Sequence record: PZ445532.1
Source of the DNA: a phage
Reading direction: 5' to 3' (one strand)
DNA length: 44,581 nucleotides
Shown: positions 5,819-43,545 of the stretch, one piece after another
Layout: every line of letters starts with the position of its first letter
How positions within the stretch are numbered: position 1 is the first letter of the stretch
Made by a program: the position numbers and the translations under genes
The notes under the pieces: generated by a model
The model's database searches: none
What the model saw: the letters and a program-made list of their open reading frames with translations, nothing else
What the model was told of the DNA's origin: nothing

Positions 5819-5960
5819 TTCCTCATGTTGGTGTGCAACCAATATACTGCAACCAACATACGCAATGCAAGCGAATTTTGCGATTATTTTTATCACTGAT
5901 AATATTAGAGGCGTGAAGTCGAGCGGGTGGCCCGCTCTGCCACAATCCCAGGGGGATAGC

Positions 5961-6662
5961 ATGAAACTTACTAAAGCAGAATATGACGCGTTGCCGGAAG
6001 GTATGAAGGCGCTTTTTGTCGCCGATGGTGATGGGTATAAATCAACGTTCATGACCGCCGAAGAAGTACAGGCGGAGATCAAGGGTCTGAAAGACAACAA
6101 CGCGAAGCTGGTTAGCGAGAAGAAAGCAGAAGCCGAACGCCGCGCCGAAGCTGAGCGCCTTGCGAAAGAGAAAGAGGAAGCCGCCGCGCGCAAAAATGGC
6201 GACCTCGAAGCGATCGACAAGTCCTGGAAAGATAAGTTTGCAAAACACGAAGCAGACACATCGGGAAAAATCGAAGCCTACCGCAAGCAGATCCACGATC
6301 TAACCATCGGCAGCGCTGCCAAAGACCTGGCGTCGAAGCTATTCGGTAAGAATGCGGGCATCATGCAACGCCACGTTATGGACCGCCTGACGCTGGAGGA
6401 CGGCGAAGACGGCAGCTTGAAGGTGCGCGTCCTGCAGGATGGCAAACCGTCCGCGCTAACTATGGAAGAGCTTGAAAAAGAGTTCCGTAATAACGCCGAT
6501 TTTGCATCCGTCCTGGCTGGCACGCCAGCCGGTGGTGCGCCGAGCAAACCGACGCATGTTGTCGAAGATGTGAAGTCGAAAATCTCTATGGGCCACAGCT
6601 TCGGCATCACCGATCTGACGAAACAGGCTGGTGAAATCATCGCTAAAATGGGCGACGAGTAA
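5961..6662 (+). CDS. head scaffolding protein (putative)
   Basis: 233 aa from MKLTKAEYD (RBS GGGGGA). Charged, Ala/Glu/Lys-rich coiled-coil-like sequence directly upstream of the major capsid gene. Confidence 0.55.
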   Translation: MKLTKAEYDALPEGMKALFVADGDGYKSTFMTAEEVQAEIKGLKDNNAKLVSEKKAEAERRAEAERLAKEKEEAAARKNGDLEAIDKSWKDKFAKHEADTSGKIEAYRKQIHDLTIGSAAKDLASKLFGKNAGIMQRHVMDRLTLEDGEDGSLKVRVLQDGKPSALTMEELEKEFRNNADFASVLAGTPAGGAPSKPTHVVEDVKSKISMGHSFGITDLTKQAGEIIAKMGDE

Positions 6663-6666
6663 GCAA

Positions 6667-6691
6667 ATTGCCCGCGAAAGCGGGCAATTTT
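6667..6691 (+). terminator. hairpin, possible attenuator between scaffold and capsid genes
   Basis: ATTGCCCGC-GAAA-GCGGGCAAT followed by TTTTG. Confidence 0.4.
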
Positions 6692-6759
6692 GCGAGCGCG
6701 TAAATCTAAGGTAACATTAACGGTACTGGGCGAATGCTCACAACTCAAAGGATTTCGAT

Positions 6760-7860
6760 ATGTCTTTAACAGTGTTCCAGCGTAAACTCGTCACCGCGGT
6801 TACGCAAATGATCCCCGACAACCTGAACGTGTTCAACGCTGCCGCTAACGGCGCTGTTGTTCTCGGCACGGGTGAAGTGCTGAAGGACGTTGTAGAAAAA
6901 ATGTCCGTAGGCTTGATCGCCAACCTCGTTACCGACCGTAACGCCTATGCCCCCGTCGGTACTCCGGCGACAGCAAAAGTGCTGGCGCGTATGCTGACCA
7001 ACTCCGTTAACCTGTCCGCGAAAGTGGGTCCGGTAGCAATCACTAAGGCTATGATGGCTAAAATCGAAACCAACGTTAACAGCGTTGCGGCTGAGATTGC
7101 GGCACAGGCTACTCAAGCGATTATGCTGCATTACCTGAAGGCTGGCATCGGCGCAAGTAAAGCGGCGATCGAGAGCAACGCAGCGGCAAAATACACCCAA
7201 CCGGCGCGCGTTGACGGCGTTGGCGGTCGTACCTTCCCGACCCTGGCAGACTTCCCGCTGGCGGCTTCTAAGTTCGGCGATCAGGCGTCTTTGATTAAGT
7301 CCTGGTTTATGGACGGCGTCACCTGGGCAAACTTCATTGCGTACCAGGCACTCCCTTCCGCTGAACAGGTATTCGCAATTGGCGATCTCCAGGTAATGGG
7401 TGATGGCCTGGGCCGTCGCTTCATTATCTCCGATGCCGCTGCCGATGCTATGGGCACGGGTAACATGCTGGGTCTGGTCCCTGGCGCGGTTGCAGTTACC
7501 ACCAACGGTCTTGATATGCTGGCGCAGGAGAAAGGCGGTAACGAGAACATCGAACGTTGGTGGCAGGGCGAGTTCGACTTCAACGTGGCGGTTAAAGGCT
7601 ATCGTCTGAAGGCGTCCGCACGTACTCCGGTCGAAGGTGTTCGCTCGTTCAAACTGTCCGACATCACCACTTCCGCTAACTGGGAACTGGACCAGGGCCA
7701 GGTAGACAACGCCCCTGCAACCGTGCAGGACGTTGGCGCTGTTGGTGATGGCGATACTAAAGGCCGTCGTAAGACCCAGGCCGCACAGGAAGTGCCGACC
7801 CGTCACATCAAGGAAACGGCGGGCGTACTGGTTACGCTGACTGCGACCAAAGCGTCCTGA
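6760..7860 (+). CDS. major capsid protein
   Basis: 366-aa ORF after the scaffold gene, followed by a strong terminator. RBS AAAGGA. Confidence 0.7.
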   Translation: MSLTVFQRKLVTAVTQMIPDNLNVFNAAANGAVVLGTGEVLKDVVEKMSVGLIANLVTDRNAYAPVGTPATAKVLARMLTNSVNLSAKVGPVAITKAMMAKIETNVNSVAAEIAAQATQAIMLHYLKAGIGASKAAIESNAAAKYTQPARVDGVGGRTFPTLADFPLAASKFGDQASLIKSWFMDGVTWANFIAYQALPSAEQVFAIGDLQVMGDGLGRRFIISDAAADAMGTGNMLGLVPGAVAVTTNGLDMLAQEKGGNENIERWWQGEFDFNVAVKGYRLKASARTPVEGVRSFKLSDITTSANWELDQGQVDNAPATVQDVGAVGDGDTKGRRKTQAAQEVPTRHIKETAGVLVTLTATKAS

Positions 7861-7878
7861 TCTACGCACATCCCAAAT

Positions 7879-7903
7879 GGGCGGGCTTATGCCCGCCTTT
7901 TTT
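7879..7903 (+). terminator. rho-independent terminator
   Basis: GGGCGGGC-TTAT-GCCCGCC followed by TTTTTT. Confidence 0.8.
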
Positions 7904-7918
7904 ATAGGAGCAAATAAG

Positions 7919-8419
7919 ATGTATGGCGACCCGCAAACATTTGTTGTTTATGCCGCGGCGCGAGGCGTTGAAATTACGCAGAGCGACGCAACGCGACACC
8001 TTACCATTGTTAATGACTTCCTTAACGGCATCGACTGGATCGGCGAACAAGCGGACCCGACCGGAATTGACGCATGGCCCCGCGTCAACTACCCGTCAGA
8101 CGGTAAGCCGGTGCAAAACACACTTACTGAAGATTTGACAGTAGTTCCGGCGGGGCAGATTGTAGACTTCGCATCAATCCCTGTTGCCGTTGAGCAAGCA
8201 GTTTACCGGCTGGCAATGTTGGTGGCGGACGATGTTGATATTTCTCCGGTCAGCGATGGTAAGGAGACTATCCGTGAAACGGTAGGCCCGATCACGATGG
8301 AGTATGACGCCGCGACGATTGGTAGCGGTGTATCTTTCCCGTGGTGGGATGGCTTGCTGGGCTACTGGGTGAATGTAGACGGCAACGCAGCGGGTAATTT
8401 TGACGTATTCCGGGGGTGA
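7919..8419 (+). CDS. structural protein, possible head-tail connector/adaptor
   Basis: 166 aa from MYGDPQTF (RBS AGGAG). The ORF-track start at 7877 lies inside the terminator. Function from position only. Confidence 0.5.
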   Translation: MYGDPQTFVVYAAARGVEITQSDATRHLTIVNDFLNGIDWIGEQADPTGIDAWPRVNYPSDGKPVQNTLTEDLTVVPAGQIVDFASIPVAVEQAVYRLAMLVADDVDISPVSDGKETIRETVGPITMEYDAATIGSGVSFPWWDGLLGYWVNVDGNAAGNFDVFRG

Positions 8420-8523
8420 TATGAATCCTGCATTACTGGCGGCTATTATCGCCGCAAATACTAAACGCCAACAAGAACCTGAACCAGCGCCAGAACCGGA
8501 ACCACCGGTGCAGGAGGATGAAA

Positions 8524-8877
8524 ATGGCGGGCATTAATTACGCGGGCTTAAAGCGGAAAGTCAATCAGCTGATTAAAAAGTACGGCATGACGACTAAGGT
8601 GATGCGTCCTGGTACAGTCGACCGCGTAGACGGCGACGAAGTGGTCACCCCGCCGACCTCGTTTGACGTCATCGGTCTTCGCGAGGAGTACAAGCCTAGC
8701 GAGATCGACGGAACGCGTATCGTTGCCGGTGATGTGAAGTTTTTATGTCGGGCGGTTGAGCAATTGCGGGTGGGCGACCTGGTTAACCTGAACGGCACTG
8801 ACTACCGGGTCATCAACCCTAACCCACTGCAACCGGCGGGAACTACCATGCTGTTTCAACTACAGCTAAGGGGCTAA
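8524..8877 (+). CDS. structural protein, possible head completion protein
   Basis: ORF 8518..8877. The second ATG at 8524 has better spacing from RBS AGGAGG. Confidence 0.5.
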   Translation: MAGINYAGLKRKVNQLIKKYGMTTKVMRPGTVDRVDGDEVVTPPTSFDVIGLREEYKPSEIDGTRIVAGDVKFLCRAVEQLRVGDLVNLNGTDYRVINPNPLQPAGTTMLFQLQLRG

Positions 8878-8878
8878 C

Positions 8879-9472
8879 GTGGCTGAAGTCTACTCATTCG
8901 CCGCCACTATTGCTACGTGGGTGGATAAGACGAAGGAGAACAACGACAAGGCGGTGCGGGCGTACGGTATGCAAATACTCGGACGCCTGATCGAGATCTC
9001 CCCGGTGGGGGATCCCCGCCGGTGGAAAATTAACAGGGCTTACGCGCTTGCCCGCCAGCACGCAAACAAGGTGAACGCCGCACAGCGTCGCAAGAATGGT
9101 GGCAAACTGAAGCGCGGGCAGAAGAAGCACGCCAGCGTGCTGGTATCATTCAAGACTAAAAACGGCAATGTGACATTCCGCCAGCGTGGCTGGGCCGCGA
9201 AGAATTACACCGGCGGACGCTTCCGGGGAAACTGGCAGGTTACGTTCGACCGACCGGCGGTTGGCGCTATAGACCGCGTGGACAAGGCCGGAACGGCAAC
9301 ATTAGCCGCGGGGCGTGAAGTGCTGGCGCATTACGATTCCAGTGAATACGGGTCGATCTGGTTTACTAACAACGTGCCATACGCGCAGCGACTTGAGTAT
9401 GGCTGGAGTAAACAAGCGCCCGCGGGGATTGTTCGCGTCGTAGCGGCAGAAATTAATTCGAAGGTGAAATAA
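8879..9472 (+). CDS. structural protein, possible neck / head-tail joining protein
   Basis: 197-aa ORF with GTG start, tightly packed in the head-to-tail joining region. Confidence 0.5.
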   Translation: MAEVYSFAATIATWVDKTKENNDKAVRAYGMQILGRLIEISPVGDPRRWKINRAYALARQHANKVNAAQRRKNGGKLKRGQKKHASVLVSFKTKNGNVTFRQRGWAAKNYTGGRFRGNWQVTFDRPAVGAIDRVDKAGTATLAAGREVLAHYDSSEYGSIWFTNNVPYAQRLEYGWSKQAPAGIVRVVAAEINSKVK

Positions 9473-9894
9473 TGAGCAATACCGCAATCCGCAAAGCGCT
9501 TAACAGCGTGGTTGATGAGTTATCGGCAAGCCTGAGCACAAGCCAGCGTCCGATTAGGGTTAACTGGGAGAACGTGAGCGGCGACCACGCAAACGGCAGC
9601 GGTGTCTACCTGGAGCCGTACCTGCTACCGGCCCCGACCCAGTTTGTGGGCTTACAGCAGAAGGGCCGGATCTATGCTGGCGTATATCAAGTTGCCGTGG
9701 TGTTCCCGGCTGGCACTGGCACACAGTACGCGAGCGAACTGGCGGACGCCATCGCTACGTCGGATAAGTGGTCGGCGGTGAAGATTTCCGGCGCGTCATT
9801 TCAGCTTCAGGACGCGCCATACACCAGTTCAGTGATTGAAGACGTTGATCGCGCCCGCATCGTGGTTACAGTCCCCTACACCTGTGGCGCCTGA
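9472..9894 (+). CDS. structural protein, possible tail completion/terminator protein
   Basis: 140-aa ORF. Its ATG overlaps the upstream stop (translational coupling). Confidence 0.5.
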   Translation: MSNTAIRKALNSVVDELSASLSTSQRPIRVNWENVSGDHANGSGVYLEPYLLPAPTQFVGLQQKGRIYAGVYQVAVVFPAGTGTQYASELADAIATSDKWSAVKISGASFQLQDAPYTSSVIEDVDRARIVVTVPYTCGA

Positions 9895-9955
9895 TTTGGC
9901 GCAATTCTGCGCGTGCTGTATCATTAAACCGTATATCTAAACAGGAGCTTTCATT

Positions 9956-10681
9956 ATGGGTTATCAACTTCCTAACGGATCAAGCGTCCAGATTGGGTCC
10001 GTACTGGGCAACGGCATCGCTGTTACGGCAGCTACCAACGCCGCCGCGTCGATCTCTGATCTTACGAAAGGTTGCGTTATCACCTGCGCGGCTTCTCATG
10101 GCCTGCGAGTTGGTGACGTGGTTATGTTCACTAAAACCCCGTGGGTCCGTGCGTTGAACCGCGCGTTTATCGTGGGTAAAGTGGCGACTAACGACGTTAC
10201 ACTGGCGCGCTTCGATACTAAAGACGTCACCAAATACCCTACCGGCGCTTTCAGCGTAGGCACACCGGGTGAGGTGGTGAAGGTGTCGAGCTTTGTCGAC
10301 TTCCCGTATATCACTAACGTTGCTGTGTCGGGTGGCGATCAGCAGACTACTACCTTCCAGCCGTTGCAGGTGAATACCGCGATTAGTCTGAACACCACGA
10401 AAAACCCGTTGGTCCAGACCTACACTTTCACCCACGACGAAGAAGACCCGATCCGCCCGATTCTGGAAGACCTGGACGACACACAGAAAACCACTGTGAT
10501 TAAGTTCACTAACCCGGCAGCGGCGAGCGGCAAAGGTGAGATCCGCATTTACCCGGCTAAGGTGTCTTTCCGGAAGATTCCATCGTCTGAAGTAAACAAC
10601 GTGGAAACGGTGGAGTCCACTCTGACCATGCAGTCTGATATGGTTATCTACCGTAAGGATCTGGTCGAGGCATTGTCTTGA
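9956..10681 (+). CDS. major tail (tube) protein
   Basis: 241-aa ORF followed by a strong terminator and then the chaperone and tape-measure genes. Candidate promoter upstream (TTGGCG-17-TATCAT, about 9901..9930). Confidence 0.65.
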   Translation: MGYQLPNGSSVQIGSVLGNGIAVTAATNAAASISDLTKGCVITCAASHGLRVGDVVMFTKTPWVRALNRAFIVGKVATNDVTLARFDTKDVTKYPTGAFSVGTPGEVVKVSSFVDFPYITNVAVSGGDQQTTTFQPLQVNTAISLNTTKNPLVQTYTFTHDEEDPIRPILEDLDDTQKTTVIKFTNPAAASGKGEIRIYPAKVSFRKIPSSEVNNVETVESTLTMQSDMVIYRKDLVEALS

Positions 10682-10711
10682 TTTGGTCGCTTAAATAGCG
10701 AGTGATAATAT

Positions 10712-10734
10712 GGGGCCAGCACGGCCCCTTTTTT
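10712..10734 (+). terminator. rho-independent terminator
   Basis: GGGGCC-AGCAC-GGCCCC followed by TTTTTT. Confidence 0.8.
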
Positions 10735-10735
10735 A

Positions 10736-11113
10736 TTGGAGAATACTACAATGGCTAAAGCACCACTCTTTACACTTGACCCTAAGCCTACCTTTAAGCT
10801 GCCGATTGAGATCCCGCGCCCAGGCGAAAACGAACCGGGCAAAATGACGTTTACCGTGCGCCACCGTCCGATCGACGAGTTTTCGCAGACCATGCAGGAT
10901 ACTGAGCGCAAGCTGTCGGAATATGACGACAACGACCCGGAAGGCTTTAACGTTATGGTCGAGGCCATAATGCACGTCGCTGAAGGCTGGAATCTGCCAG
11001 ATGAATTTAACGCGGAGAACGTCCGCCGCCTGGTGGTTAACTACCCTCGAGCGTTCGGTGTGTTCCACACGTCGTACTATCTCGAATTGATGGGGTTGCG
11101 TGAAAAAAACTAA
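10736..11113 (+). CDS. tail assembly chaperone (gpG-like)
   Basis: 125-aa acidic ORF two genes upstream of the tape measure. Ends REKN* on the slippery run GAAAAAAAC. Confidence 0.7.
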   Translation: MENTTMAKAPLFTLDPKPTFKLPIEIPRPGENEPGKMTFTVRHRPIDEFSQTMQDTERKLSEYDDNDPEGFNVMVEAIMHVAEGWNLPDEFNAENVRRLVVNYPRAFGVFHTSYYLELMGLREKN

Positions 11114-11427
11114 TTGAGGCGGCGCGACGCTTTTATGGCCCGCCGCCACCCTCCGAAGATTTAGCCGCGAGTTTATGGGGAGCGACCCCTGAAGACGTTT
11201 GCCCCCCGGTTGCACTATGGCCCGACAACGCGAAGGTAGTCGCAGTCTTCACAGATTGCTCCACGCAATGGCGCACCGGATTCGGTGGCGCATACGGCAT
11301 CGACTACGGCGTACTGGAATGGCTATTTAAGATGCACGGCATCGAAAACGCACAACGTGCGTTTAAAGATATCAAGCTAATGGAACGCGTTGCGCTGGAT
11401 GAAATGGCGCGGCAGAACCCCGCATAA
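10736..11427 (+). CDS. tail assembly chaperone, -1 frameshift fusion product (gpGT-like)
   Basis: Heptamer A_AAA_AAC at 11104..11110 sits just before the zero-frame stop. The -1 frame is open for 108 codons (LIEAARRFYGPPPP...ARQNPA*) to 11427 and has no start codon of its own. Confidence 0.6.
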
Positions 11428-11429
11428 CG

Positions 11430-11742
11430 AAGCGGGACAGGCGGGACGTCCCGTTTTGTCCCGCACCTCTAAAACTGCATATTTACCCACTTACATTGCA
11501 TAAATTAAAAGCGGGACAGGGTGCTGTCCCGATCTATCCCACCCTCAAAATGTGAATATCTATTCTGTTTTCGTGCATAAAGTAAGCGGGACAAAAAGCG
11601 GGACAAACAGGAGGCGGGACAAAGCGGGACAGCACCCTGTCCCCGCCAGTGCTGCCGCGGGTTTTAGCCGATCGGGACAGGCGGGACAAAGCCCAGTCTT
11701 TCAGACTAGACGGGGGTCAATGGCCCCCCTCGTCTGAGACTG
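11430..11742. repeat. non-coding module: GCGGGACA(G) repeat array, inverted repeats and 51-bp conserved hairpin element (copy A)
   Basis: At least 8 copies of GCGGGACA in a 380-bp gap, several paired with CTGTCCC as hairpins. Ends with a 51-bp sequence (11692..11742) identical to 39840..39890. Confidence 0.85.
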
Positions 11743-11810
11743 AATAAGGTTTGTTTTAAATTCGCTGATACAATAACCGACGGCAACTGCATAAAAAGGG
11801 GGACTGCATA

Positions 11811-14453
11811 ATGGCAGATCAGGCAGCGGGCATCACGCTCAAGGCGGATGTTGCACAAATCAGAACGGCGAATACTGTACTTGATTCATTCGCACAGAAA
11901 TCTGAGAACACAGAACAGAAAGTAAAGAAATTAAACGACACCCTCGGCAAGTCGAAAAAGGTTACTGGCGACGCCGCGGGCGGAATGGAAAAGTTAGCGA
12001 CTGAATCGCAGCGTGCCGCCGATGGCATGACGAAACAAGAGCGACTCGCCAGCCGACTAGGCATGTCAACCAAAAACCTGGGATTCGCATCGCGGAACGC
12101 GGCATTCCAGTTACAGGATATCGCGGTTACGCTTGAGATGGGTATGCCGGTGCACCGCGTTATGCTTCAGCAGCTACCACAGCTAACCGGCGCATTTGGC
12201 GGACTGGGTAACACGCTGCGATATGTTGCAGGCTTCCTCGGCCCAGTAGGGATCGGACTTGCTGCCGTAACGGCGACGTTAGGCGTGGGTGTGGCAATTA
12301 CGTCACGGGCAGAGAACCAAGTAGCCGCGCTTAATAAGACGCTGGCGCTGTCCGGTAATATCTCCGGCCTCACAGCTAACCAGATCCTGGTGCTGTCCGA
12401 GAACGCCGAGCGCATGGGCGGGTCTTTTCGCAAGACGCGTGACACAATCCAGGCACTGGCGGCGGCTGGTGTGAAAGCGGGTGGTGACTTCGGCGCATTG
12501 GCTAAGGTAGTTAATGACTTTGCGAAGGTGTCCAGCCAGCCGATCGAGGATGTGGTGGCGGCGGTGGCTAAGCTGTCAACCGACCCCGTTGGCGGACTGC
12601 GTGCGCTGGCGGATAAGTATCACGTCGTAAACGAAGCGCAGATCCAGCAGGTACAGTCGCTCGTTGATGCGGGTCGTGAGACAGACGCAGTTGCGTTGGC
12701 TAACAAAACAGCCGCTGCGTCGTTCACCAGCATGACCAATGAAATCAAGTCCAACATGGGTACGCTTGAGCGGTCGATGAACGTCGTCACATCGGCAGCT
12801 AAATCTATGTGGGATGCAATCCTGGATGTGGGCCGCGCGCAGTCCTCGAATGAGTCAGAGATGAAAGCGCGTGAGTCATTGCAGCGCATGACCACGGCTT
12901 ATTATGCCGAGATGAAAGCGGTAAACGCTGCCGGTGGGGTAATGACTGAAGCGCAGAAAGCACGTATTAACATGCTTTACAGCGAACTGGTCGCCCAGGA
13001 AAAAGTGGTGGCGTCGCTCACCCTGCGCAACCGCGCCGAGCGTGACAACGCCCGCGCCGCGGATGAATCAGCAAAGGCGAACGAGGAGGCCAACCGCACT
13101 GCCCGTGACCGCGCCGCGTTCGAGAAGGAATACGCCACCAACGCTAAGAAGCGCGCCGACGAGATCGCCCGCCTCAATTTGCTGAATAAGCGCGGCGTTA
13201 TTGATGAGAAAGAACTAGCCGAGGCGGTTAAGCAGGTCAACGAGCGCTACAAAGACCCCGCCCCGAAGAAGGCCGCGGCTGTTCGCGTGGATGCCGGTAT
13301 GAAAATGCTGGAAGTCGCACGGAGCGAACTGGCCCAGCTTCGAGAATCCGGCAAGCAGATCGAAGCCAACGCGTCTACGCAGACCCGCACGCAACGCGCT
13401 CAAGCGGCCTTAAACAAGCTGATCGCCGACAATGAGCAGTTAATCGCTGCGAGCAAAGAAAGAGCGCTAACGGCAGCAGAAAAGCAGCAATTAGTCGAGT
13501 TCGGGCGCGTGAAGGAAGTCCGCGAGCAGATCGTCGAAGAAGCCAAATTGCTGGATGCGAAAGAGCAGCAGGTTAAGGCGCACGCGCAGATCGATGCCTT
13601 CGTTAAGAACCAGAACGCCGAACTAAAAGCCACCGCCGCGGGGTATGCGCTTTCCACTCGCGAAGCGGCAAACCTGCGCGAAGAATTGCAGCTAATTGAC
13701 CGCCTGAAGCGGGTTGGCGCTAACGATACCGATATTGACAAGGCGGTGTCTAAGCTGCGCGAAGTGCAGGAAGCACAGACCGGCGCTAACGCCTCGCTAT
13801 GGGATGGCTTCAGCCGCGGGCTTAAGGATAGCGTGGATGAAATGGGTAACGGATATACGCAGATGGCGACGCTAACGAAATTCACGTTCAGCGCTATGCA
13901 AGACACGATGAACGAGTTTTTCGAGACTGGCAAGCTGAACGCAAAGGATATGGTTAAATCCATCCTGAGCGAACTAATCAAGCTGGCTACCTCGCAGGCG
14001 TTCAAGTCCATCGTTAGCGCTTTCGGTGGCGACGGCGGCAAAAACGGATTGTTCGGCGCTATCTTCTCTGGCCTCACTAAGAATGCGGACGGCGGAGCGT
14101 ACGCAGGAGGCAATCTCGCGGCCTATTCGGGTAAAGTGGTAAGCCAGCCTACCTTTTTCAGTTATGGCGTCCAGGCGTTCGCTAAGGGCGCAGGATTGAT
14201 GGGGGAGGCCGGACCCGAGGCCATCATGCCACTGAAGCGCGGGCCGGACGGGAAACTGGGCGTTGCCGCGTCTGGCGCAGGTGGTGGTATGGTCGTGACG
14301 ACTAACGTTTACACGGGGACCGGTAAAACGGATACCAGTGTCAGCGGGCCGGACCCCCGTACTGCGCAGGCGTTCGGCAAGCAAATCACCGAGGCGGTGA
14401 AATCCGAGATCGTGAAGGCGACGAAACCGGGTGGTGTACTTTACAAACGATGA
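11811..14453 (+). CDS. tail tape measure protein
   Basis: 880-aa ORF, Ala/Gln/Lys-rich with long predicted helical segments and a glycine-rich C-terminal part. Canonical position. Confidence 0.9.
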   Translation: MADQAAGITLKADVAQIRTANTVLDSFAQKSENTEQKVKKLNDTLGKSKKVTGDAAGGMEKLATESQRAADGMTKQERLASRLGMSTKNLGFASRNAAFQLQDIAVTLEMGMPVHRVMLQQLPQLTGAFGGLGNTLRYVAGFLGPVGIGLAAVTATLGVGVAITSRAENQVAALNKTLALSGNISGLTANQILVLSENAERMGGSFRKTRDTIQALAAAGVKAGGDFGALAKVVNDFAKVSSQPIEDVVAAVAKLSTDPVGGLRALADKYHVVNEAQIQQVQSLVDAGRETDAVALANKTAAASFTSMTNEIKSNMGTLERSMNVVTSAAKSMWDAILDVGRAQSSNESEMKARESLQRMTTAYYAEMKAVNAAGGVMTEAQKARINMLYSELVAQEKVVASLTLRNRAERDNARAADESAKANEEANRTARDRAAFEKEYATNAKKRADEIARLNLLNKRGVIDEKELAEAVKQVNERYKDPAPKKAAAVRVDAGMKMLEVARSELAQLRESGKQIEANASTQTRTQRAQAALNKLIADNEQLIAASKERALTAAEKQQLVEFGRVKEVREQIVEEAKLLDAKEQQVKAHAQIDAFVKNQNAELKATAAGYALSTREAANLREELQLIDRLKRVGANDTDIDKAVSKLREVQEAQTGANASLWDGFSRGLKDSVDEMGNGYTQMATLTKFTFSAMQDTMNEFFETGKLNAKDMVKSILSELIKLATSQAFKSIVSAFGGDGGKNGLFGAIFSGLTKNADGGAYAGGNLAAYSGKVVSQPTFFSYGVQAFAKGAGLMGEAGPEAIMPLKRGPDGKLGVAASGAGGGMVVTTNVYTGTGKTDTSVSGPDPRTAQAFGKQITEAVKSEIVKATKPGGVLYKR

Positions 14454-21892: not shown

Positions 21893-21973
21893 GGTATCAT
21901 CTCCTATATTTGGTTGGGTTTTAGTATTGCACCGCTCAACCAAGAATGCAACCAATTTTATGAGGATTCAGCT

Positions 21974-24932: not shown

Positions 24933-24996
24933 GATGTTTTCCTTTTTAGTGGGAGGCGGTATTGCCTCCCGATGTGGTTAAGATACTGCAACCAAC

Positions 24997-25467
24997 CTAT
25001 TGGTTGCAAGTGAATTTTGCAACGTTTATTGCGTAAATTTTCGGGACTAAATCGCCGCACGCCCGACGAATTGCCGCGATGTTCTTCGGACAGTCTTCAA
25101 TGATGACCAGTTCCGATACGTCCGCATAGCAGACCATTTTGAACACAGCGCACGCCTTAAACTCTGGCGGCGGGGTATCGTCCAGCATGTGGCGCATAAA
25201 CAACCGGCCTGTAGGGAATACTTCCAGTTGTTCGGCGGTGGTGTCCCAACATTCTCGCTGCCGGTTGGTCAGATACGCGATCTCGAAGCCTTGCTCTTTG
25301 TACATGGTCAGCAGCAGCAGCATATCCATGTTAAGGTCTTCGCGGACGTGCGCCTTGTGCCACTTCGCCCAGAAGGTGGATTTAGTTTTTATACCCGGCA
25401 CCAGGTCGGCACGCGCATCGCTTGAACCGTTAATAACTCCATCCAAATCGCAAATCAGTAATTTCAT
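24997..25467 (-). CDS. HAD-superfamily hydrolase (putative phosphatase/nucleotidase)
   Basis: N-terminal LICDLDGVI matches HAD motif I (DxDG). Confidence 0.55.
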   Translation of the reverse strand: MKLLICDLDGVINGSSDARADLVPGIKTKSTFWAKWHKAHVREDLNMDMLLLLTMYKEQGFEIAYLTNRQRECWDTTAEQLEVFPTGRLFMRHMLDDTPPPEFKACAVFKMVCYADVSELVIIEDCPKNIAAIRRACGDLVPKIYAINVAKFTCNQ

Positions 25468-26599: not shown

Positions 26600-26680
26600 C
26601 GTGTCGTCTCCAGGTATTAAAAAGGGCGTCCAAACCGGACACCCTCAATATAATGCGACCAAGCCTATTATGCAACCAAA

Positions 26681-29738: not shown

Positions 29739-29912
29739 TTACTTTTGCTCTGCGCGGTAGCGGCGCTGCCGTTCGCGCTCTTTTTTATTGCGGCACGATT
29801 TGCACTCTGCCCGATACCCATCCGGGCTTCGCGCAGTCTTGCCGGTGTATTTGTGGAACTGGGATAGCGGTTTAACGCAGCCGCAATTACTGCAACGTTT
29901 TTCTTCAATCAT
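29739..29912 (-). CDS. small zinc-ribbon protein
   Basis: 57 aa from MIEEKRCSNCGC...CKSC (RBS GAGGA 9 nt upstream). Two CxxC pairs. Confidence 0.4.
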   Translation of the reverse strand: MIEEKRCSNCGCVKPLSQFHKYTGKTARSPDGYRAECKSCRNKKERERQRRYRAEQK

Positions 29913-29952
29913 TTCTAAAATCCTCGGTAGAGCTAACCTGCTCACTATACTG

Positions 29953-30231
29953 TTAAGCGACCAATTCAGCAACCAATAAATCACAGTCGGCTATGTTGTC
30001 GATGACGCGAACGTCAGCACCACGGCGGGCCATTCGCTCATGTTCTCGTACCTGGTGCGGCTTCGGTTTGCCACCAGGGCGCTTAACTTCGACGAAAACT
30101 ATCTTGCCGTTGATGATGATAATAAGATCGGGCGCACCTGCGCGCCCCTCCCAAGCCACTTTACGGCAGAATCCGCCGACGGCTTTCACCCGTCTCATCA
30201 AGAGACTTTGAATCTTGCCTTCTGGTGTCAT
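29953..30231 (-). CDS. VRR-NUC domain nuclease
   Basis: 92 aa. GAPDLIIIINGKIVFVEVKRPGGKPKPHQ matches the VRR-NUC PD-(D/E)xK core. Confidence 0.75.
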   Translation of the reverse strand: MTPEGKIQSLLMRRVKAVGGFCRKVAWEGRAGAPDLIIIINGKIVFVEVKRPGGKPKPHQVREHERMARRGADVRVIDNIADCDLLVAELVA

Positions 30232-33807: not shown

Positions 33808-33897
33808 TTTCCAATTCCTCATTTTCACATGTATCGGGGTTATTGGAAGCCACCCCGTTCGGCTTGGTTGCTAATCTACTTGGTTGCGCCTGAGCGG

Positions 33898-34140
33898 TCA
33901 AGCATTTTCATTAAAAAGATTTCGGGTCACGTAGTTGGAGGCGTTCTCAATCCAGCTTAACGGCGGGCGATCGATGTTCTTACCCACCCAGTCGACGGCA
34001 GCTTCGCTATACCCGTTATCCAGCCAGCGGGTCGGATGGCGAATCATCCAGGCCACCATTAACACGCCTTGCACGCAATGCAGGATAAAGCCCAGCGCGC
34101 CGAGCAAAAACATCAATAAGATTGCGAATACTTTATTCAT
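33898..34140 (-). CDS. small membrane protein
   Basis: 80 aa. Hydrophobic helices AILLMFLLGALGFIL and VLMVAWMI. Confidence 0.5.
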   Translation of the reverse strand: MNKVFAILLMFLLGALGFILHCVQGVLMVAWMIRHPTRWLDNGYSEAAVDWVGKNIDRPPLSWIENASNYVTRNLFNENA

Positions 34141-36043: not shown

Positions 36044-36051
36044 GGATAATA

Positions 36052-36567: not shown

Positions 36568-36908
36568 GGTATATCTCCGATTGGTTAAGTTTAGGTGTCG
36601 GCAGTTAACTTCGTCGGTGGCCTTAACATAGTGCCTGGTTACGCGTTCTCCCGTTCGGGTAGTGGACCAGGTTATATAATCACGGTTGGGAATCCTGACA
36701 CTTCGATCCGGCCCCTGCGTTGCCCCTCTCCAGTTTGCGTCCTGCATCCTGTCGACGGAGTGAATAATAGATTGGTTGCAGAAGGGAGTCAACAACTAAT
36801 TTAAAAAAAAAGCGCCGAGGCAAAATGCAACGGCGCTAACCAATAAGAGACAATGAGACGGGATTTATTATTACACGCGTGCGCGCCCGTTTCAATATTC
36901 CAGAGGAG

Positions 36909-36954
36909 TTGACACCCCGCGGTTTTAGGTGTAGTTTCGTTGGTCATTAACCAA
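36909..36954 (+). promoter_or_regulatory. sigma70-like promoter with palindromic operator in front of the HTH gene
   Basis: TTGACA (36909..36914), 17-bp spacer, TAGTTT (36932..36937). Palindrome TTGGT-CATTA-ACCAA (36940..36954) just upstream of SD GAGGG. Confidence 0.45.
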
Positions 36955-36968: not shown

Positions 36969-37298
36969 ATGAATATCAACGACGCAATCGAAATGTTAAC
37001 GAAGACTGTTTGCAGTGAGACAAGCCGGTCATGGGCGTATACCGATGCCGTGGGGGCGGTGCTATTTGAGATTGAACGTCTGCGCAGTGTAGAAAAAGAA
37101 TTACGCGCCAGGCTGGAATTGCTCAACGGTACGGCGGCGAGCAAGCTGCAGAAGCACAATGAAGAAATGGAAGAATACAAAAAGCAGGTTATACGTTTGC
37201 GCGCCGAGGGAAAATCCTGGGCGATGATTGCCGAGTTGACTGGGATTAATCAGAGCACAGTGCGCTCCTGGGTACGCAATAATAAAACTTCTAAGTAA
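36969..37298 (+). CDS. HTH DNA-binding protein (putative transcriptional regulator)
   Basis: 109 aa. C-terminal helix-turn-helix-like KSWAMIAELTGINQSTVRSWVRN. Confidence 0.6.
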   Translation: MNINDAIEMLTKTVCSETSRSWAYTDAVGAVLFEIERLRSVEKELRARLELLNGTAASKLQKHNEEMEEYKKQVIRLRAEGKSWAMIAELTGINQSTVRSWVRNNKTSK

Positions 37299-39573: not shown

Positions 39574-39690
39574 ATTCTGCGCGCATTGGTTGCCGATATG
39601 GTAATTCCCATATCGGTGAATGATTAAATTTTGCGCGCATTGGTTGCCATTTTGAGTGTTTTTACCTGGTCGTATTGGTTGCCGTGTAGT
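39574..39690. repeat. three direct repeats of GCGCATTGGTTGCC plus a perfect 9-bp inverted repeat
   Basis: TTGGTTGCC at 39586, 39640 and 39675. The first two copies sit in a 23-bp direct repeat TAAATT[CT]TGCGCGCATTGGTTGCC. Inverted repeat CCGATATGG-TAATTC-CCATATCGG at 39593..39616. Confidence 0.8.
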
Positions 39691-39724
39691 GTAAATATAG
39701 TGAATAGTTATGCAATAAAACTGC

Positions 39725-39890
39725 ATAAAGTAAGCGGGACAGAAAGCGGGACAGACCAGGGGCGGGACAAAGCGGGACAGCACCCCTGTCCCGCCCCGGA
39801 TGACGCGGCCTGGCGAGGAGCGGGACAGCGGGACAGCACCCCAGTCTTTCAGACTAGACGGGGGTCAATGGCCCCCCTCGTCTGAGACTG
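39725..39890. repeat. non-coding module: GCGGGACA(G) repeat array and 51-bp conserved hairpin element (copy B)
   Basis: AGCGGGACAG repeated at least 6 times. Hairpin GGGACAG-CACC-CCTGTCCC. The terminal 51 bp (39840..39890) are identical to 11692..11742. Confidence 0.85.
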
Positions 39891-40105
39891 CATAAAATCC
39901 AGGATGCACGACGCACGGCAGCATGATGCAAATTGCGGTCGTCGATGAACTAGGCAACCAATGCGAGTTGCAGAATGGTGGGTGGAAAATGCAGTTTGCA
40001 GTCACAGCAGATAGCGATCGACTTTTTCATGCGCGTGATTAATATTGGTTGCATTCGCCCTGGCACACTGCTATATTGGTTGCACACCAACATGAGGACT
40101 GAACA

Positions 40106-40411
40106 ATGAAAGCATTAATCTGGAATTACACAATGGCGGTGGCGAAGCTGTACGAAGCGAAGCACACAAACGGCAACGCAGACGACGCGCGCCAGGTTGT
40201 TATCCTGGCCCAGCAGGGAATCATGAACGCGTTCGACGATATGTTTGCCAGCCTGGACGAACTGGAACCGCTGCGCGTGGCAATCTGCGAATATGCGATG
40301 GCTTTTGCCCGCGAGCGCCTGGCGTATCGCTTCGGGATCGGTGAGACGGCAGTGACAAACGTCGCTCGTATTAAAGCCCAGCGCGAACTATTCGCCCAGC
40401 TTGCAAAATAA
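40106..40411 (+). CDS. hypothetical protein
   Basis: 101-aa ORF preceded by the 27-bp leader shared with the DnaN-like gene. Confidence 0.55.
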   Translation: MKALIWNYTMAVAKLYEAKHTNGNADDARQVVILAQQGIMNAFDDMFASLDELEPLRVAICEYAMAFARERLAYRFGIGETAVTNVARIKAQRELFAQLAK

Positions 40412-40420: not shown

Positions 40421-40690
40421 ATGGACCGCAGACGCGCAAAACGCCTTTCGTGGAGCATCCCACTGCATTGCATACGAATATGGGCTAAGAATGCGAATGA
40501 GGGCGATTCTGTGTTCTGGTGCTACCGCGATGATGTGAAGCCATTAACGCAGACTCGATACTTGCACCAGTTCGCAGCACAACATGATTTCAGGGTGCGG
40601 ACTTCCTTGCAACCAATGGGAATACGTATTACATTACGCCGGAAGCCCGCCGTTGAGCGGGTAGGCAAACACTGGAGACTGAGCAAATGA
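40421..40690 (+). CDS. hypothetical protein
   Basis: 89-aa basic ORF. Confidence 0.5.
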   Translation: MDRRRAKRLSWSIPLHCIRIWAKNANEGDSVFWCYRDDVKPLTQTRYLHQFAAQHDFRVRTSLQPMGIRITLRRKPAVERVGKHWRLSK

Positions 40691-41974: not shown

Positions 41975-42009
41975 AGTCCCAGTGAGATAAAACTTACTGG
42001 GACTTTTTT
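41975..42009 (+). terminator. rho-independent terminator
   Basis: AGTCCCAGT-(12-nt loop)-ACTGGGACT followed by TTTTT. Confidence 0.7.
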
Positions 42010-42300
42010 ATGGATAAGCTAAACGAGTGGTTATTCGCCCTTGCGTGTCTTGCTGGTGGCTTCGTCGGCGCACGCATTCATGGCGAGGCAACGAAAGGGC
42101 CGTTGAACTTCGTTTTATATATCGTGGTTGGCTTCCTGTGTGCCATATTTGGTGCGCCAGCTATTGCCGAGTGGTCTGGTTTGTCTGGTGAGCGCACTGT
42201 TGCCGGTTTGGGCTTCGTAACTGCCATCTTCTGGATGCCAATAGCGGACCGGATCCGGGAGACTATTGCGTCGTTCCGACTTCCAGGGGGTGCAAAATGA
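42010..42300 (+). CDS. holin-like membrane protein
   Basis: 96 aa with 2-3 hydrophobic helices, immediately upstream of the endolysin block. Confidence 0.6.
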   Translation: MDKLNEWLFALACLAGGFVGARIHGEATKGPLNFVLYIVVGFLCAIFGAPAIAEWSGLSGERTVAGLGFVTAIFWMPIADRIRETIASFRLPGGAK

Positions 42301-42542
42301 TTATCTCCGTCCTGTTGTTTGTTATCATAGGGGCTTCGTCCCTGTTTAACGTGTATGCGCCGTCCGTTCAGGATGGCATCTTAGGCCGGGTGCTGTATCT
42401 GTTAACGGCAATGATCTGTCTTATCGGATTGCTGCAAACAGGAGACGTATCGGATACCACCTGGACCGCGTTAATCTGGCTGTTTGCATTGCGCACACTG
42501 CGTAATGCTGTTTTAAATGGGGTAAAACATGCGATTCAGTGA
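42297..42542 (+). CDS. second holin/antiholin-like membrane protein
   Basis: 81 aa with hydrophobic helices. Start and stop overlap the neighbouring genes. Confidence 0.5.
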   Translation: MIISVLLFVIIGASSLFNVYAPSVQDGILGRVLYLLTAMICLIGLLQTGDVSDTTWTALIWLFALRTLRNAVLNGVKHAIQ

Positions 42543-43020
42543 TAACGGTCTACGATTTACGGCAGCATGGGAGGCTTTCAGCCCAGTGCCGTATTTCGCG
42601 ACCAAGAAAGAGCAGGCCCGCGGCCTGTACACCTGGGGTTATGGGCACACCGGCACTAATCCGCCACGAAGCATTACCCGTGCGGAAGCGCTGGAACTGC
42701 TCAAGCGAGATGTGGCGTATGCCGAGGACTGGGTGAACAAATACGCACATCCGAGCATTAACCAGGCGCAATTCGACGCGCTGGTGGACCTGGTAATCAA
42801 TGCCGGTCAGGGTCCGATCGTACCGGATGACGTCGCGAATGATTTCGACGATGCGGTCCGCCTGGGCGACTGGGCGAAGGTCCGTGCTACACTGCCGCAG
42901 TTCCGCAAGCAAGGCGGGGAAGTGCTTAAGGGTCTGGTGCGCCGTGCAATCGGTAGACAGGCGTTGTTTGATGGTAAGCAGTGGGACGTTGCCGAGAAAA
43001 TCGGGCGTAACGCAGCATAA
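42529..43020 (+). CDS. endolysin (GH24 lysozyme-like)
   Basis: 163 aa with the lysozyme-like block YTWGYGHTG and surrounding conserved acidic residues. Confidence 0.85.
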   Translation: MRFSDNGLRFTAAWEAFSPVPYFATKKEQARGLYTWGYGHTGTNPPRSITRAEALELLKRDVAYAEDWVNKYAHPSINQAQFDALVDLVINAGQGPIVPDDVANDFDDAVRLGDWAKVRATLPQFRKQGGEVLKGLVRRAIGRQALFDGKQWDVAEKIGRNAA

Positions 43021-43035
43021 TACGAGGAACACAAT

Positions 43036-43449
43036 ATGTTAAAAAGCATTCTTGATCATAACGCCGACGCACTTGCTGCACTGGCTAAAACCGAAGACCC
43101 TGGCGCACGCGCTATCATCGCGGACACTATCAGCCATGCAGGCGTCTTTGACGCGAAGCTGCCGAGTGTGCCGGAAAGAAAGCCCGTGGCAAGTGCGACC
43201 GTAACCATCACCCCAGTGTCAGCCGCAGTTGGTGCGAAGGCCACCGCTTCTGTTGCCGTCCTGCCATCCGACGCAACTAACAAGGCCGGGAAGTGGGTGT
43301 CCGCAAACCCTGACTGCGCGGCAGTCAACCAGACTACCGGCGAAATCACAGCAAAATCGGAGGGTGGCGTCCACATCTTTTGGGTGGCATCCGATGGAGG
43401 CGGGGCGATGGCGTCCGCCATCTTCACCGTAACGGGAGCAGGAAAATAA
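43036..43449 (+). CDS. Ig-like (Big_2-like) domain protein
   Basis: 137 aa. C-terminal half resembles bacterial Ig-like domains (...ITAKSEGGVHIFWVASDGGG...FTVT). Confidence 0.55.
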   Translation: MLKSILDHNADALAALAKTEDPGARAIIADTISHAGVFDAKLPSVPERKPVASATVTITPVSAAVGAKATASVAVLPSDATNKAGKWVSANPDCAAVNQTTGEITAKSEGGVHIFWVASDGGGAMASAIFTVTGAGK

Positions 43450-43455
43450 AACCAC

Positions 43456-43481
43456 AAGCCCGGTTAATTCCGGGCTTTTTA
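43456..43481 (+). terminator. rho-independent terminator
   Basis: AAGCCCGG-TTAATT-CCGGGCTT followed by TTTTTA. Confidence 0.75.
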
Positions 43482-43545
43482 TTGCTTGACTTGCAACCAA
43501 CTATCAGACCATACTGCTACCAATCGACGAGAGGAGTATTACACT

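What the first reader, a model, noticed from the sequence alone, without database searches (positions are those of the whole stretch)
5834..43523. Genome-wide 9-bp motif TTGGTTGCA / TGCAACCAA concentrated in intergenic regions
The motif or a one-mismatch variant occurs, often in pairs, at 5834 and 5848, 21910/21927/21947, 24987 and 25000 (perfect 22-bp palindrome TGCAACCAACCTATTGGTTGCA), 26654 and 26671, 29957 and 29968, 33864 and 33880, 36772, 39586/39640/39675, 39953, 40045 and 40076, 43492 and 43515. Almost all copies lie within 150 bp upstream of a start codon, on either strand. That distribution is expected for a phage-specific promoter element or transcription-factor site, not for chance. 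It does not match sigma70, sigma54 or DnaA-box consensus sequences.
Basis: seen in the sequence. Interest (0 to 1): 0.7.

Follow-up and report, generated by a model that had tools for sequence, protein, structure and literature searches.

The report
Shared operator motif in phage promoters
An 8-9 base motif, TTGGTTGC(A), sits inside the core of almost every host-type promoter of this E. coli phage and of three related phage lineages, so it is most likely the docking site of an unidentified regulator of phage transcription.

Summary
The window is a near-complete Dhillonvirus (HK578-like E. coli siphovirus) genome. TTGGTTGCA occurs 11 times against 0.4 expected. The true core, TTGGTTGC, occurs 19 times against 2.0 expected, and 20 copies with at most one mismatch lie in the 7.7% of the genome that is non-coding.

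The copies are not a stand-alone exotic promoter. They lie inside sigma70-type core promoters at three recurring positions:
- -39..-31, forward orientation only, exactly 18 nt before a TATAnT -10, so that TTGCAn acts as the -35 hexamer;
- -22..-14, either orientation;
- -8..+3, either orientation.

There is also a promoter-less array downstream of the primase-helicase gene. Across eight Dhillonvirus genomes the motif is conserved while the bases between copies vary.

The same 8-mer in the same geometries occurs in Edwardsiella phage eiAU and Klebsiella phage VLCpiS11a. A T5-to-C variant occurs in a fourth lineage. Salmonella phage VSiP and more than ten related contigs lack it.

The best reading is an operator for a diffusible DNA-binding regulator, probably phage-encoded and mainly repressive. 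Its identity is unresolved. The obvious candidate, a Dhillonvirus-only HTH protein, does not track the motif. Nmad5 tracks it imperfectly. I found no published description.

The parts
5834..5874 (-). Promoter of the minus-strand island (beta-clamp-like gene 5300-5812, then Nmad5 4454-5218). It has three copies: a degenerate TCGCTTGCA at 5866-5874 over the -35 (TTGCAT), TTGGTTGCA at 5848-5856 in the spacer, and TTGGTTGCA at 5834-5842 overlapping the -10 TATATT (5841-5846) and +1. The last copy is part of TTGGT-N5-ACCAA.
   Evidence: In the alignment of 8 genomes the copies and the -10 are invariant while the 8 nt between the -35 and the spacer copy vary.
21910..21955 (-). Promoter of the cor-like lipoprotein gene 21674-21892. 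TTGGTTGCA at 21947-21955 lies over the -35, 18 nt before AATACT. A degenerate TTGGTTGAG is at 21935-21943. A reverse copy (plus-strand TTGGTTGGG, 21910-21918) lies at about -2..+7.
   Evidence: In phage LM40P1 this promoter is replaced by the canonical cassette TTGGTTGCA-N8-TTGGTTGCA-N-TATATT.
24980..25008 (-). Promoter of gene 24378-24932. The inverted pair TGCAACCAA-CCTA-TTGGTTGCA is at 24987-25008. The 24987 copy ends 1 nt before the -10 TATCTT (24980-24985). The -35 TTGCAA overlaps the 25000 copy.
   Evidence: conserved in 8 genomes.
26647..26679 (-). Promoter of the operon starting at 26141-26599: TTGGTTGCA (26671-26679, over the -35) - N8 - TTGGTCGCA (26654-26662) - T - TATATT (26647-26652).
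   Evidence: The 8-nt spacer differs in nearly every genome while both copies and the -10 are kept.
29944..29976 (-). Promoter of the Zn-ribbon/Lar-like gene 29739-29912: TTGGTTGCT (29968-29976, over the -35) - gaa - TTGGTCGCT (29956-29964) - 6 nt - TATAGT (29944-29949).
   Evidence: The same 12-nt and 6-nt geometry occurs in eiAU at 42932/42944.
33864..33901 (-). Promoter of the ssDNA-binding protein / DNA polymerase operon (gene 33082-33807): TTGACC-17-TAGATT, with reverse copies in the spacer (33880-33888) and at -6..+3 (33864-33872).
   Evidence: Called by the consensus scan. The copies are conserved and the spacer is variable. The SSB promoter of Klebsiella phage VLCpiS11a has the same arrangement.
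36764..36792 (-). Leftward early promoter TTGACT-17-TATTAT, with a reverse-oriented copy (plus-strand TTGGTTGCA at 36772-36780) in the spacer.
   Evidence: 10/12 match in the scan. The copy is invariant in 8 genomes and the adjacent bases vary.
36909..36954 (+). Rightward early promoter of the HTH gene: TTGACA (36909-36914) - 17 nt - TAGTTT (36932-36937), followed by the palindrome TTGGTCATTAACCAA (36940-36954; TTGGT-N5-ACCAA).
   Evidence: Read from the sequence. The -35, the -10 and the palindrome are invariant in 8 genomes, while the spacer and the downstream leader vary.
39586..39961 (.). Array without an obvious promoter, downstream of the primase-helicase gene: TTGGTTGCC at 39586, 39640 and 39675 (plus) and at 39953 (minus). 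The first two lie in a 24-nt direct repeat.
   Evidence: Equivalent arrays occur in eiAU (26868-27640, nine exact copies plus three one-mismatch copies) and in L330 (8309-8772, variant TTGGCTG).
40045..40084 (+). Promoter of gene 40106-40411: TTGGTTGCA (40045-40053, over the -35) - 18 nt - TATATT (40072-40077), overlapping TTGGTTGCACACCAA (40076-40090).
   Evidence: Both copies are invariant and the spacer is variable in 8 genomes.
43486..43523 (+). Promoter ahead of the small-ORF / terS / terL (packaging and structural) transcription unit: TTGACT-18-CATACT, with reverse copies directly after the -35 (43492-43500) and at -7..+2 (43515-43523).
   Evidence: Called by the scan. Aligned.
40608..40616 (-). 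Exact copy inside coding sequence (gene 40421-40690). Function doubtful.
36969..37298 (+). Candidate trans-factor 1: a 109-aa protein with a variable N-terminus and a conserved C-terminal HTH (HTH_23, HTH_28, Sigma70_r4_2 above Pfam cut-offs). It is the first gene of the rightward early operon.
   Evidence: It is restricted to Dhillonvirus. The other motif-positive lineages have an unrelated XRE protein at this position.
4454..5218 (-). Candidate trans-factor 2: an Nmad5-domain protein (PF18757). This family is present in all four motif-positive lineages.
   Evidence: Counter-example L332. The structure model is too poor to interpret.
29739..29912 (-). Candidate trans-factor 3: a 57-aa four-cysteine zinc-ribbon protein with a basic tail. 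It is 62-67% identical in eiAU and lies downstream of a motif-bearing promoter in three lineages.
   Evidence: Homologues at 47-50% identity exist in motif-negative phages.

Best explanation
TTGGTTGC(A) is an operator: the recognition site of a diffusible, sequence-specific DNA-binding protein that controls host sigma70 RNA polymerase at nearly every transcription unit of the phage.

Shown:
- The sites are strongly over-represented, intergenic, and under purifying selection.
- They lie within the RNA polymerase footprint, over the -35, in the spacer next to the -10, and across the -10/+1.
- They also form a promoter-less array after the primase-helicase gene.
- The same site and the same geometries are shared by four siphovirus lineages.

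Inferred:
- A protein bound at spacer and +1 sites would exclude or trap RNA polymerase, so the main effect is negative, either temporal shut-off or feedback.
- Forward copies at -39..-31 do double duty, because their TTGCAn is the -35 hexamer. This explains the fixed 18-nt distance to the -10 and the forward-only orientation at that position.
- TTGGT-N5-ACCAA palindromes at +1 of three promoters suggest that the protein can also bind as a dimer.

I commit to a phage-encoded factor. Its identity is open. The candidates are the HTH protein 36969-37298, Nmad5, and the 57-aa Zn-ribbon protein.
For: - Enrichment.
- Promoter context: three scan-called sigma70 promoters carry the site in the spacer. 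A -10-like hexamer lies exactly 18 nt after the 9-mer in 5 of 19 sites, against a background of 1.3% per position.
- Selection: the motif core is invariant at 83% of positions in 7 other Dhillonvirus genomes. The figure is 56% for the +-10-nt flanks and 70% for other intergenic DNA. Alignments show conserved copies separated by freely varying spacers.
- Either orientation, variable copy spacing (12, 14, 17, 18, 31 nt) and arrays without a -10 fit a DNA-binding protein rather than polymerase itself.
- Lineage distribution: 23 copies against 1.5 expected in eiAU. In Klebsiella phage VLCpiS11a there are 14 exact copies, and it is the top intergenic 8-mer. A T5-to-C variant occurs in L330. There are none in VSiP, and densities are at chance level in more than ten related loci. 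A lineage-limited motif with a lineage-specific variant fits a co-evolving phage factor.
- The HTH head of gp36969 is conserved through alleles of 99%, 77% and 49% identity with swapped N-termini. An invariant palindrome sits at +3..+17 of its own promoter.
Against: - No binding or transcription data exist. All promoters are predicted.
- The factor is unidentified. The HTH protein is absent from eiAU, VLCpiS11a and L330, which carry an unrelated XRE protein at that position.
- XRE homologues also occur in motif-negative lineages.
- Nmad5 and Dam are present in L332, which lacks the motif.
- Zn-ribbon homologues occur in motif-negative phages.
- An identical 8-mer across lineages with non-homologous early regulators is what a host factor would give.
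- A repressor that touches essentially all promoters, including the one ahead of the packaging and structural genes, has no obvious logic in a virulent phage.
- The strict 18-nt phasing is also compatible with an activator or a polymerase-read element.
Confidence: 0.5

Rival explanations
1. Host-factor sites. The motif is the recognition site of a DNA-binding regulator conserved in Enterobacterales. Several phage lineages have placed it in their promoters to couple phage development to host physiology. By recall, not checked here, virulent Bacillus phage phi29 carries host Spo0A boxes in its main promoters in this way.
For: - An identical 8-mer with identical geometries occurs in phages of Escherichia/Shigella, Edwardsiella and Klebsiella whose syntenic early regulators are non-homologous (HTH_23 against XRE).
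- No phage protein has a phyletic profile that fits cleanly.
- Two unrelated environmental contigs (L165, L194) carry repeated TTGGTTGCA-18-TATAAT/TATAGT promoters.
Against: - I know of no E. coli regulator with this consensus (from memory, no database available). The closest, the CytR octamer GTTGCATT, overlaps only partly. Motif positions 9-11 are not conserved while the 5' TTG is invariant.
- The motif is absent from closely related Salmonella phage VSiP and from many relatives.
- L330 has a variant core.
- L165 and L194 were found by searching for exactly this pattern, and their hosts are unknown.
Confidence: 0.2
2. Promoter element. The motif is read by RNA polymerase, native or modified by a phage factor, as an extended or substitute -35 element. 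Alternatively it is the box of a -35-replacing activator, by recall analogous to the T4 MotA box or the lambda cII TTGC repeats. Motif-bearing promoters would then form a phage-specific class, which is.
For: - Forward-only orientation at -39..-31 and exactly 18 nt to a good -10 in 5 of 19 window sites, and again in eiAU, VLCpiS11a, L149 and L181.
- These promoters have a weak -35 (TTGCAn, 3/6 match) but good -10 hexamers.
- The Dhillonvirus candidate protein has a sigma region-4-like HTH.
Against: - About half of the copies are in the spacer, at +1, or in arrays without a -10, in either orientation.
- Promoters 33901, 36792, 43486 and 36909 have their own near-consensus TTGACY -35 in addition to reverse copies.
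- Two promoters keep TTGCA at the -35 but have lost the TTGG part, and are still conserved.
- No MotA or AsiA family hit among the 35 window proteins scanned against Pfam.
Confidence: 0.17
3. Replication function. The sites are iterons bound by the phage replication initiator, for example the primase-helicase. The primary locus is the array downstream of that gene. Copies in promoters serve autoregulation or coupling of transcription to replication, by recall as with DnaA boxes or plasmid Rep iterons.
For: - The array next to the primase-helicase gene is the most widely shared feature. The window has 4 copies plus 2 in the adjacent promoter. eiAU has 9 exact and 3 one-mismatch copies in about 800 nt. 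All 6 copies in L330 lie there.
- Direct repeats in the array and inverted repeats at promoters resemble the Rep iteron/operator division.
Against: - 13 of the 19 window copies lie elsewhere, in promoters across the genome.
- In each lineage the same region contains a different, lineage-specific G-rich repeat confined to it (GCGGGACA, GGGGGAGA, GGGGATGAA and others). These fit the iteron role better.
- Primase-helicase identity to the window is similar in motif-positive lineages (45-48%) and motif-negative lineages (43-45%).
Confidence: 0.08

Closest known systems
Operators of phage early repressors (lambda/P22 Cro and CI at PL/PR); comparison from general knowledge, not checked here
   Same: Short repeated sites overlap the -35, spacer and -10 of host sigma70 promoters. 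There are several sites per promoter. A candidate small HTH protein is encoded directly downstream of one regulated promoter, which also carries a palindromic site.
   Different: The sites here are 8-9 bp and asymmetric. They occur in either orientation with variable spacing. They are spread over about ten promoters plus a promoter-less array, in a virulent phage. They are shared by lineages whose proteins at the Cro position are not homologous.
T4 middle promoters (MotA box plus sigma70 -10, sigma appropriation by AsiA/MotA); comparison from general knowledge
   Same: A 9-bp asymmetric box in a virulent coliphage lies at a fixed distance upstream of a sigma70-type -10 and takes the place of a consensus -35.
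   Different: The sequence differs (MotA box about TTTGCTTTA, centred near -30, against TTGGTTGCA centred at -35). No MotA or AsiA homologue was detected. Many copies lie in the spacer, at +1 or in arrays, in either orientation.
Host Spo0A boxes in promoters of virulent phage phi29; comparison from general knowledge
   Same: A short asymmetric site recurs in the main promoters of a lytic phage and lets one regulator silence the whole programme.
   Different: No host regulator with this specificity is known to me. The motif has a patchy distribution among close relatives that infect similar hosts.
Iteron/Rep systems and DnaA boxes; comparison from general knowledge
   Same: One short site is used both in an array near the replication genes and in promoters. 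Both direct and inverted arrangements occur.
   Different: Most copies are in promoters. A separate family of lineage-specific G-rich repeats occupies the presumptive origin.
E. coli CytR operators (octamer GTTGCATT, direct or inverted, flexible spacing); recalled from the literature, not tested
   Same: There is sequence overlap (GTTGCA). Both tolerate either orientation and variable spacing.
   Different: The invariant part here is the 5' TTGGTTGC, whereas the ATT of the CytR octamer is not conserved. I saw no flanking CRP sites.

Membership tests
sigma70-type promoter | A TATAAT-like -10 hexamer (A at position 2, T at position 6) with a TTGACA-like hexamer 16-18 bp upstream | tested here: met
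   The consensus scan calls 36792-36764(-), 33901-33873(-) and 43486-43515(+), each with the motif in the spacer. In 5 of 19 copies a -10-like hexamer lies exactly 18 nt after the 9-mer, so TTGCAn sits 17 nt from the -10.
sigma70-type promoter | Transcription starts 6-8 nt downstream of the -10 | not testable with these tools
   No 5'-end data for any Dhillonvirus turned up in the literature searches.
T4 MotA-dependent middle promoter | Box (a/t)(a/t)(a/t)TGCTT(t/c)A centred near -30 | tested here: not met
   The motif is TTGGTTGC(A), centred at -35 when it lies upstream of a -10.
T4 MotA-dependent middle promoter | MotA and AsiA homologues encoded by the phage | tested here: not met
   No such Pfam family among the 35 window proteins scanned. 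The structural proteins were not scanned.
lambda-type Cro/CI operator | 17-bp pseudo-palindromic operators in tandem at divergent early promoters, read by a Cro/CI-type repressor | tested here: not met
   The core is 8 bp and asymmetric, with uninformative flanks. The sites are dispersed over about ten promoters. The Dhillonvirus protein at the Cro position is HTH_23/sigma-r4-like, not HTH_3.
sigma54 promoter | TGGCAC-N5-TTGCW (GG and GC 10 nt apart) | tested here: not met
   Within the motif GG and GC are 2 nt apart. In paired copies they are 14 or more nt apart (sequence).
DnaA box | TTATNCACA | tested here: not met
   4 of 9 positions match by inspection. A separate TTATGCA inverted pair that does resemble DnaA boxes lies at 39694-39731.
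Origin iterons | Repeats confined to the origin region next to the initiator gene | tested here: inconclusive
   Arrays exist downstream of the primase-helicase gene in the window, eiAU and L330. However, 13 of 19 window copies are elsewhere, and other repeats confined to that region exist in every lineage.
Binding site of a known host regulator | Match to a curated E. coli transcription-factor consensus | not testable with these tools
   No transcription-factor motif library was available. From memory only CytR (GTTGCATT) overlaps, and its 3' half is not conserved here.
Known RNA family | Match to an Rfam covariance model | tested here: not met
   No Rfam match and no tRNA anywhere in the window.

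The most novel reading that the evidence does not exclude
One 8-bp operator is shared by at least four siphovirus lineages (Dhillonvirus, Eiauvirus, a Klebsiella Guernseyvirinae lineage, and L330 with a one-base variant). These lineages have exchanged their classical early HTH regulators. The operator would be read by a protein not recognised as a transcription factor. The best lead is Nmad5, currently filed as 'nucleotide-modification associated'. It is toxic when cloned and has been implicated as a possible trigger of the Tmn defence system (PMC11846954). Nmad5 would then be a global promoter-binding regulator of phage transcription, not a DNA-modification enzyme.
Probability: 0.1. Interest if true: 0.75.

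Novelty: new member of a known kind. Interest (0 to 1): 0.45.

Why it matters
Dhillonviruses are common E. coli phages. They are used in phage-therapy engineering and in defence-system studies, including the BASEL collection and the Tmn and Avs2 work (titles). My literature searches found no description of their transcription programme.

The motif yields a concrete, testable map of about ten promoters and a single regulatory word that connects them. This is useful for rational engineering of gene expression in these phages, and for finding the regulator by DNA-affinity capture.

The cross-lineage conservation, despite replacement of the early HTH gene, raises a specific question: which protein, phage or host, reads the site?

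Tried and rejected
- A 5th-order gene-caller overfitted. It was replaced by a 2nd-order model plus manual curation.
- The viral-contig scan for paired copies returned mostly unrelated 9-nt tandem coding repeats. It did reveal eiAU (L128).
- The scan for TTGGTTGCA-N18-TATANT returned mostly chance hits. It yielded L149 and L181 (Klebsiella-phage relatives), and L165 and L194 of unknown origin.
- HTH protein 36969-37298 as binder: weakened. There is no homologue or HTH signature in eiAU, L149 or L181, even at relaxed thresholds.
- XRE protein as binder: L330 has the variant motif but an XRE recognition helix of the motif-negative type.
- GTTGCCG in VSiP as an equivalent motif: it is mostly coding.
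- Relaxed BLASTP between window and eiAU proteins found no further shared small protein.
- Nmad5 structure: mean pLDDT 61.8 and no fold match, so it is uninformative.
- Nmad5/Dam phyletic link: contradicted by L332, which has Nmad5 and Dam but no motif. No alternative repeat was found there.
- Literature searches for the motif, for Dhillonvirus or HK578 promoters or transcriptomes, and for eiAU promoters found nothing relevant.

Full report
**What the window is.** Megablast places the window in the genus Dhillonvirus (HK578-like E. coli/Shigella siphoviruses). It is 92-95% identical to EP23, StarDew, UHP65 and more than 150 other records. It runs from the terL start codon to the end of terS, so it is essentially a whole genome. 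I built a gene map from a codon-model caller plus manual curation against annotated relatives. The map is 92.3% coding. The strand blocks are: 1-4439 plus, 4454-5812 minus, 5961-23734 plus (with a minus-strand cor-like gene at 21674-21892), 23760-36567 minus, and 36969 to the end plus.

**Check of the observation.**
- TTGGTTGCA occurs 11 times against 0.38 expected.
- With up to one mismatch there are 25 copies against 11.4 expected.
- The information sits in an 8-mer, TTGGTTGC, with 19 copies against 2.0 expected. There is a weak preference for A on either side and nothing further out.
- Nine of the 11 exact 9-mers and 8 of the 14 one-mismatch 9-mers are intergenic, although only 7.7% of the genome is non-coding. 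Two-mismatch copies are not enriched.
- Sixteen of the 20 intergenic copies lie within 150 nt of a start codon.

**Anatomy.** The copies lie inside sigma70-type core promoters.
- The consensus scan calls TTGACT-17-TATTAT at 36792-36764(-), TTGACC-17-TAGATT at 33901-33873(-) and TTGACT-18-CATACT at 43486-43515(+). Each has a reverse-oriented copy in the spacer, and the last two have a second copy across -7..+3.
- In a second group the copy is forward and is followed after exactly 18 nt by TATATT, TATAGT or AATACT (40045, 26671, 29968, 21947). The motif's TTGCAn therefore occupies the -35 position with a 17-nt spacer. Five of 19 copies have a -10-like hexamer at that exact distance, against a background of 1.3% per position.
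- These promoters carry further forward copies. Some end 1 nt before the -10 (5848, 24987, 26654). Some end 6 nt before it (29956, and a degenerate copy at 21935). Some overlap the -10 and +1 (5834, 40076).
- Three positions recur: -39..-31 (forward only), about -22..-14 (either orientation), and about -8..+3 (either orientation).
- Three promoters have a TTGGT-N5-ACCAA palindrome at the start site: 5834, 40076, and 36940-36954 downstream of the TTGACA-17-TAGTTT promoter of the first rightward gene.
- Four copies (39586, 39640, 39675 and 39953) form an array downstream of the primase-helicase gene without a convincing -10.
- Internal gaps of the structural operon have no copies.
- No Rfam family and no tRNA is present.

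**Selection.** Across seven other Dhillonvirus genomes, including the divergent LM40P1, motif positions are invariant at 83%. The figure is 56% for the +-10-nt flanks and 70% for the remaining intergenic DNA (Fisher p = 6.5e-4 for motif core against all other intergenic positions). The alignments show conserved copies and -10 hexamers separated by spacers that differ in almost every genome. The clearest case is TTGGTTGCA-N8-TTGGTTGCA-T-TATATT at 26647-26679. In LM40P1 the cor promoter has been replaced by that same cassette.

**Distribution beyond the genus.**
- A pattern scan led to Edwardsiella phage eiAU (Eiauvirus; primase-helicase 45-49% identical). It has 23 copies against 1.5 expected, mostly intergenic. 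The geometries are the same: S-12-S-6-TATAGT, S-18-TATAGT overlapping a second copy, and reverse copies in TAGACA/TTGCAC-17 promoters. An array of nine exact and three one-mismatch copies lies after the primase-helicase gene.
- Klebsiella phage VLCpiS11a (Guernseyvirinae) has 14 exact copies. The motif is its top intergenic 8-mer, and its SSB promoter has the same reverse-copy-in-spacer arrangement as the window.
- Contig L330 (primase-helicase 37% identical) has six copies of a one-base variant, TTGGCTG(C/T), all after the primase-helicase gene.
- Salmonella phage VSiP has none. More than ten related loci have chance-level densities.

**Who reads it?** Among the 35 window proteins scanned against Pfam, the only one with a significant HTH family match is the 109-aa product of 36969-37298 (HTH_23, HTH_28, Sigma70_r4_2 above cut-off). 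Its HTH head is conserved through alleles of 99%, 77% and 49% identity whose N-termini have been swapped. Its own promoter carries an invariant palindrome.

That protein is confined to Dhillonvirus. eiAU, VLCpiS11a and L330 carry an unrelated XRE protein at that position, as do the motif-negative relatives. The first-gene regulator therefore does not track the motif.

Families shared by all motif-positive genomes and absent from VSiP are Nmad5 (PF18757) and a PF05869 Dam methyltransferase. Contig L332 has both and lacks the motif. The Nmad5 model was too poor for fold comparison. A 57-aa Zn-ribbon protein is well conserved in motif-positive lineages but also has 47-50% homologues in motif-negative ones. 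One paper reports that Nmad5 is dispensable, toxic when cloned, and that a missense change in it lets the phage escape the Tmn defence (PMC11846954). It says nothing about DNA binding.

**Why not origin iterons.** In every lineage the region after the primase-helicase gene holds a different G-rich repeat confined to that region: GCGGGACA in Dhillonvirus, GGGGGAGA in VSiP, GGGGATGAA in L330. TTGGTTGC, in contrast, is dispersed through promoters.

**Conclusion.** The best-supported reading is an operator for a diffusible regulator acting on host RNA polymerase at nearly all phage promoters. The position of the copies suggests a mainly negative effect, and the forward copies over the -35 double as the -35 hexamer. 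I favour a phage-encoded factor (0.5). The alternatives are a host factor (0.2), an element read by polymerase or an activator box (0.17), and an initiator site (0.08). All promoter assignments are predictions. No transcript or binding data exist, and I found no published description of the motif.

Noticed in passing
window 11433-11690 and 39735-39835: Two near-identical elements of about 190 bp. Each holds 6-7 copies of (A)GCGGGACA(G/A), with inverted copies, followed by the same hairpin-forming stretch (agtctttcagact / agacgggggtcaatggcccccctcgtct). One lies upstream of the tape-measure gene and the other downstream of the primase-helicase gene. They are Dhillonvirus-specific and are candidate origin iterons.
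   Followed up: partly
window 39694-39731; L330 8472-8503: The non-coding stretch GAATAGTTATGCA(A)TAAAA-nTGCATAA(A)GTAA is conserved between lineages whose primase-helicases are only 37% identical. It contains an inverted pair of TTATGCA words that resemble DnaA boxes (TTATNCACA). It directly precedes the G-rich iterons in both lineages.
   Followed up: partly
window 4454-5812 (minus strand): A minus-strand island inside the structural module encodes an Nmad5-domain protein (4454-5218) and a 170-aa protein resembling the central domain of the DNA polymerase III beta clamp (5300-5812; sub-threshold Pfam and NCBIfam hits). It is driven by a three-copy motif promoter.
   Followed up: partly
window 26681-27448 (minus strand): A 255-aa protein with an N-terminal PAPS-reductase-like domain (at the Pfam cut-off). 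Relatives have a small ORF or intergenic DNA at this position. The C5 cytosine methyltransferase that relatives encode further upstream is reduced in the window to a 76-aa remnant (27821-28051).
   Followed up: no
window 43546-43913: Relatives carry a 380-aa phosphoesterase gene between the lysis genes and terS. The window has only small ORFs there, including a 28-aa hydrophobic peptide (43546-43632) and a 76-aa ORF (43683-43913).
   Followed up: no
window 36969-37298 and loci L267, L278, L004, L144: The early HTH protein exists as alleles with unrelated or swapped N-terminal halves (86-142 aa in total) but a nearly invariant C-terminal HTH. This suggests a modular partner-binding domain.
   Followed up: partly
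window 24996-24999; L009 (phage Pride): The 4-nt spacer of the inverted pair at 24987-25008 is flipped in phage Pride compared with the other genomes, while both arms are unchanged.
   Followed up: no
L165 169-482; L194 4165-5400: Two environmental viral contigs show no protein similarity to the window over the fetched locus, and no match in the phage collection. Both carry repeated TTGGTTGCA-18-TATAAT/TATAGT promoters. L165 has a further copy 24 nt upstream.
   Followed up: partly
window 36052-36567 (minus strand): The first leftward early gene encodes a 171-aa protein with alternating poly-acidic and KKAPAKGK-type basic repeats and a conserved C-terminal domain. It is shared with eiAU, VSiP and VLCpiS11a. 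It has no known family.
   Followed up: no
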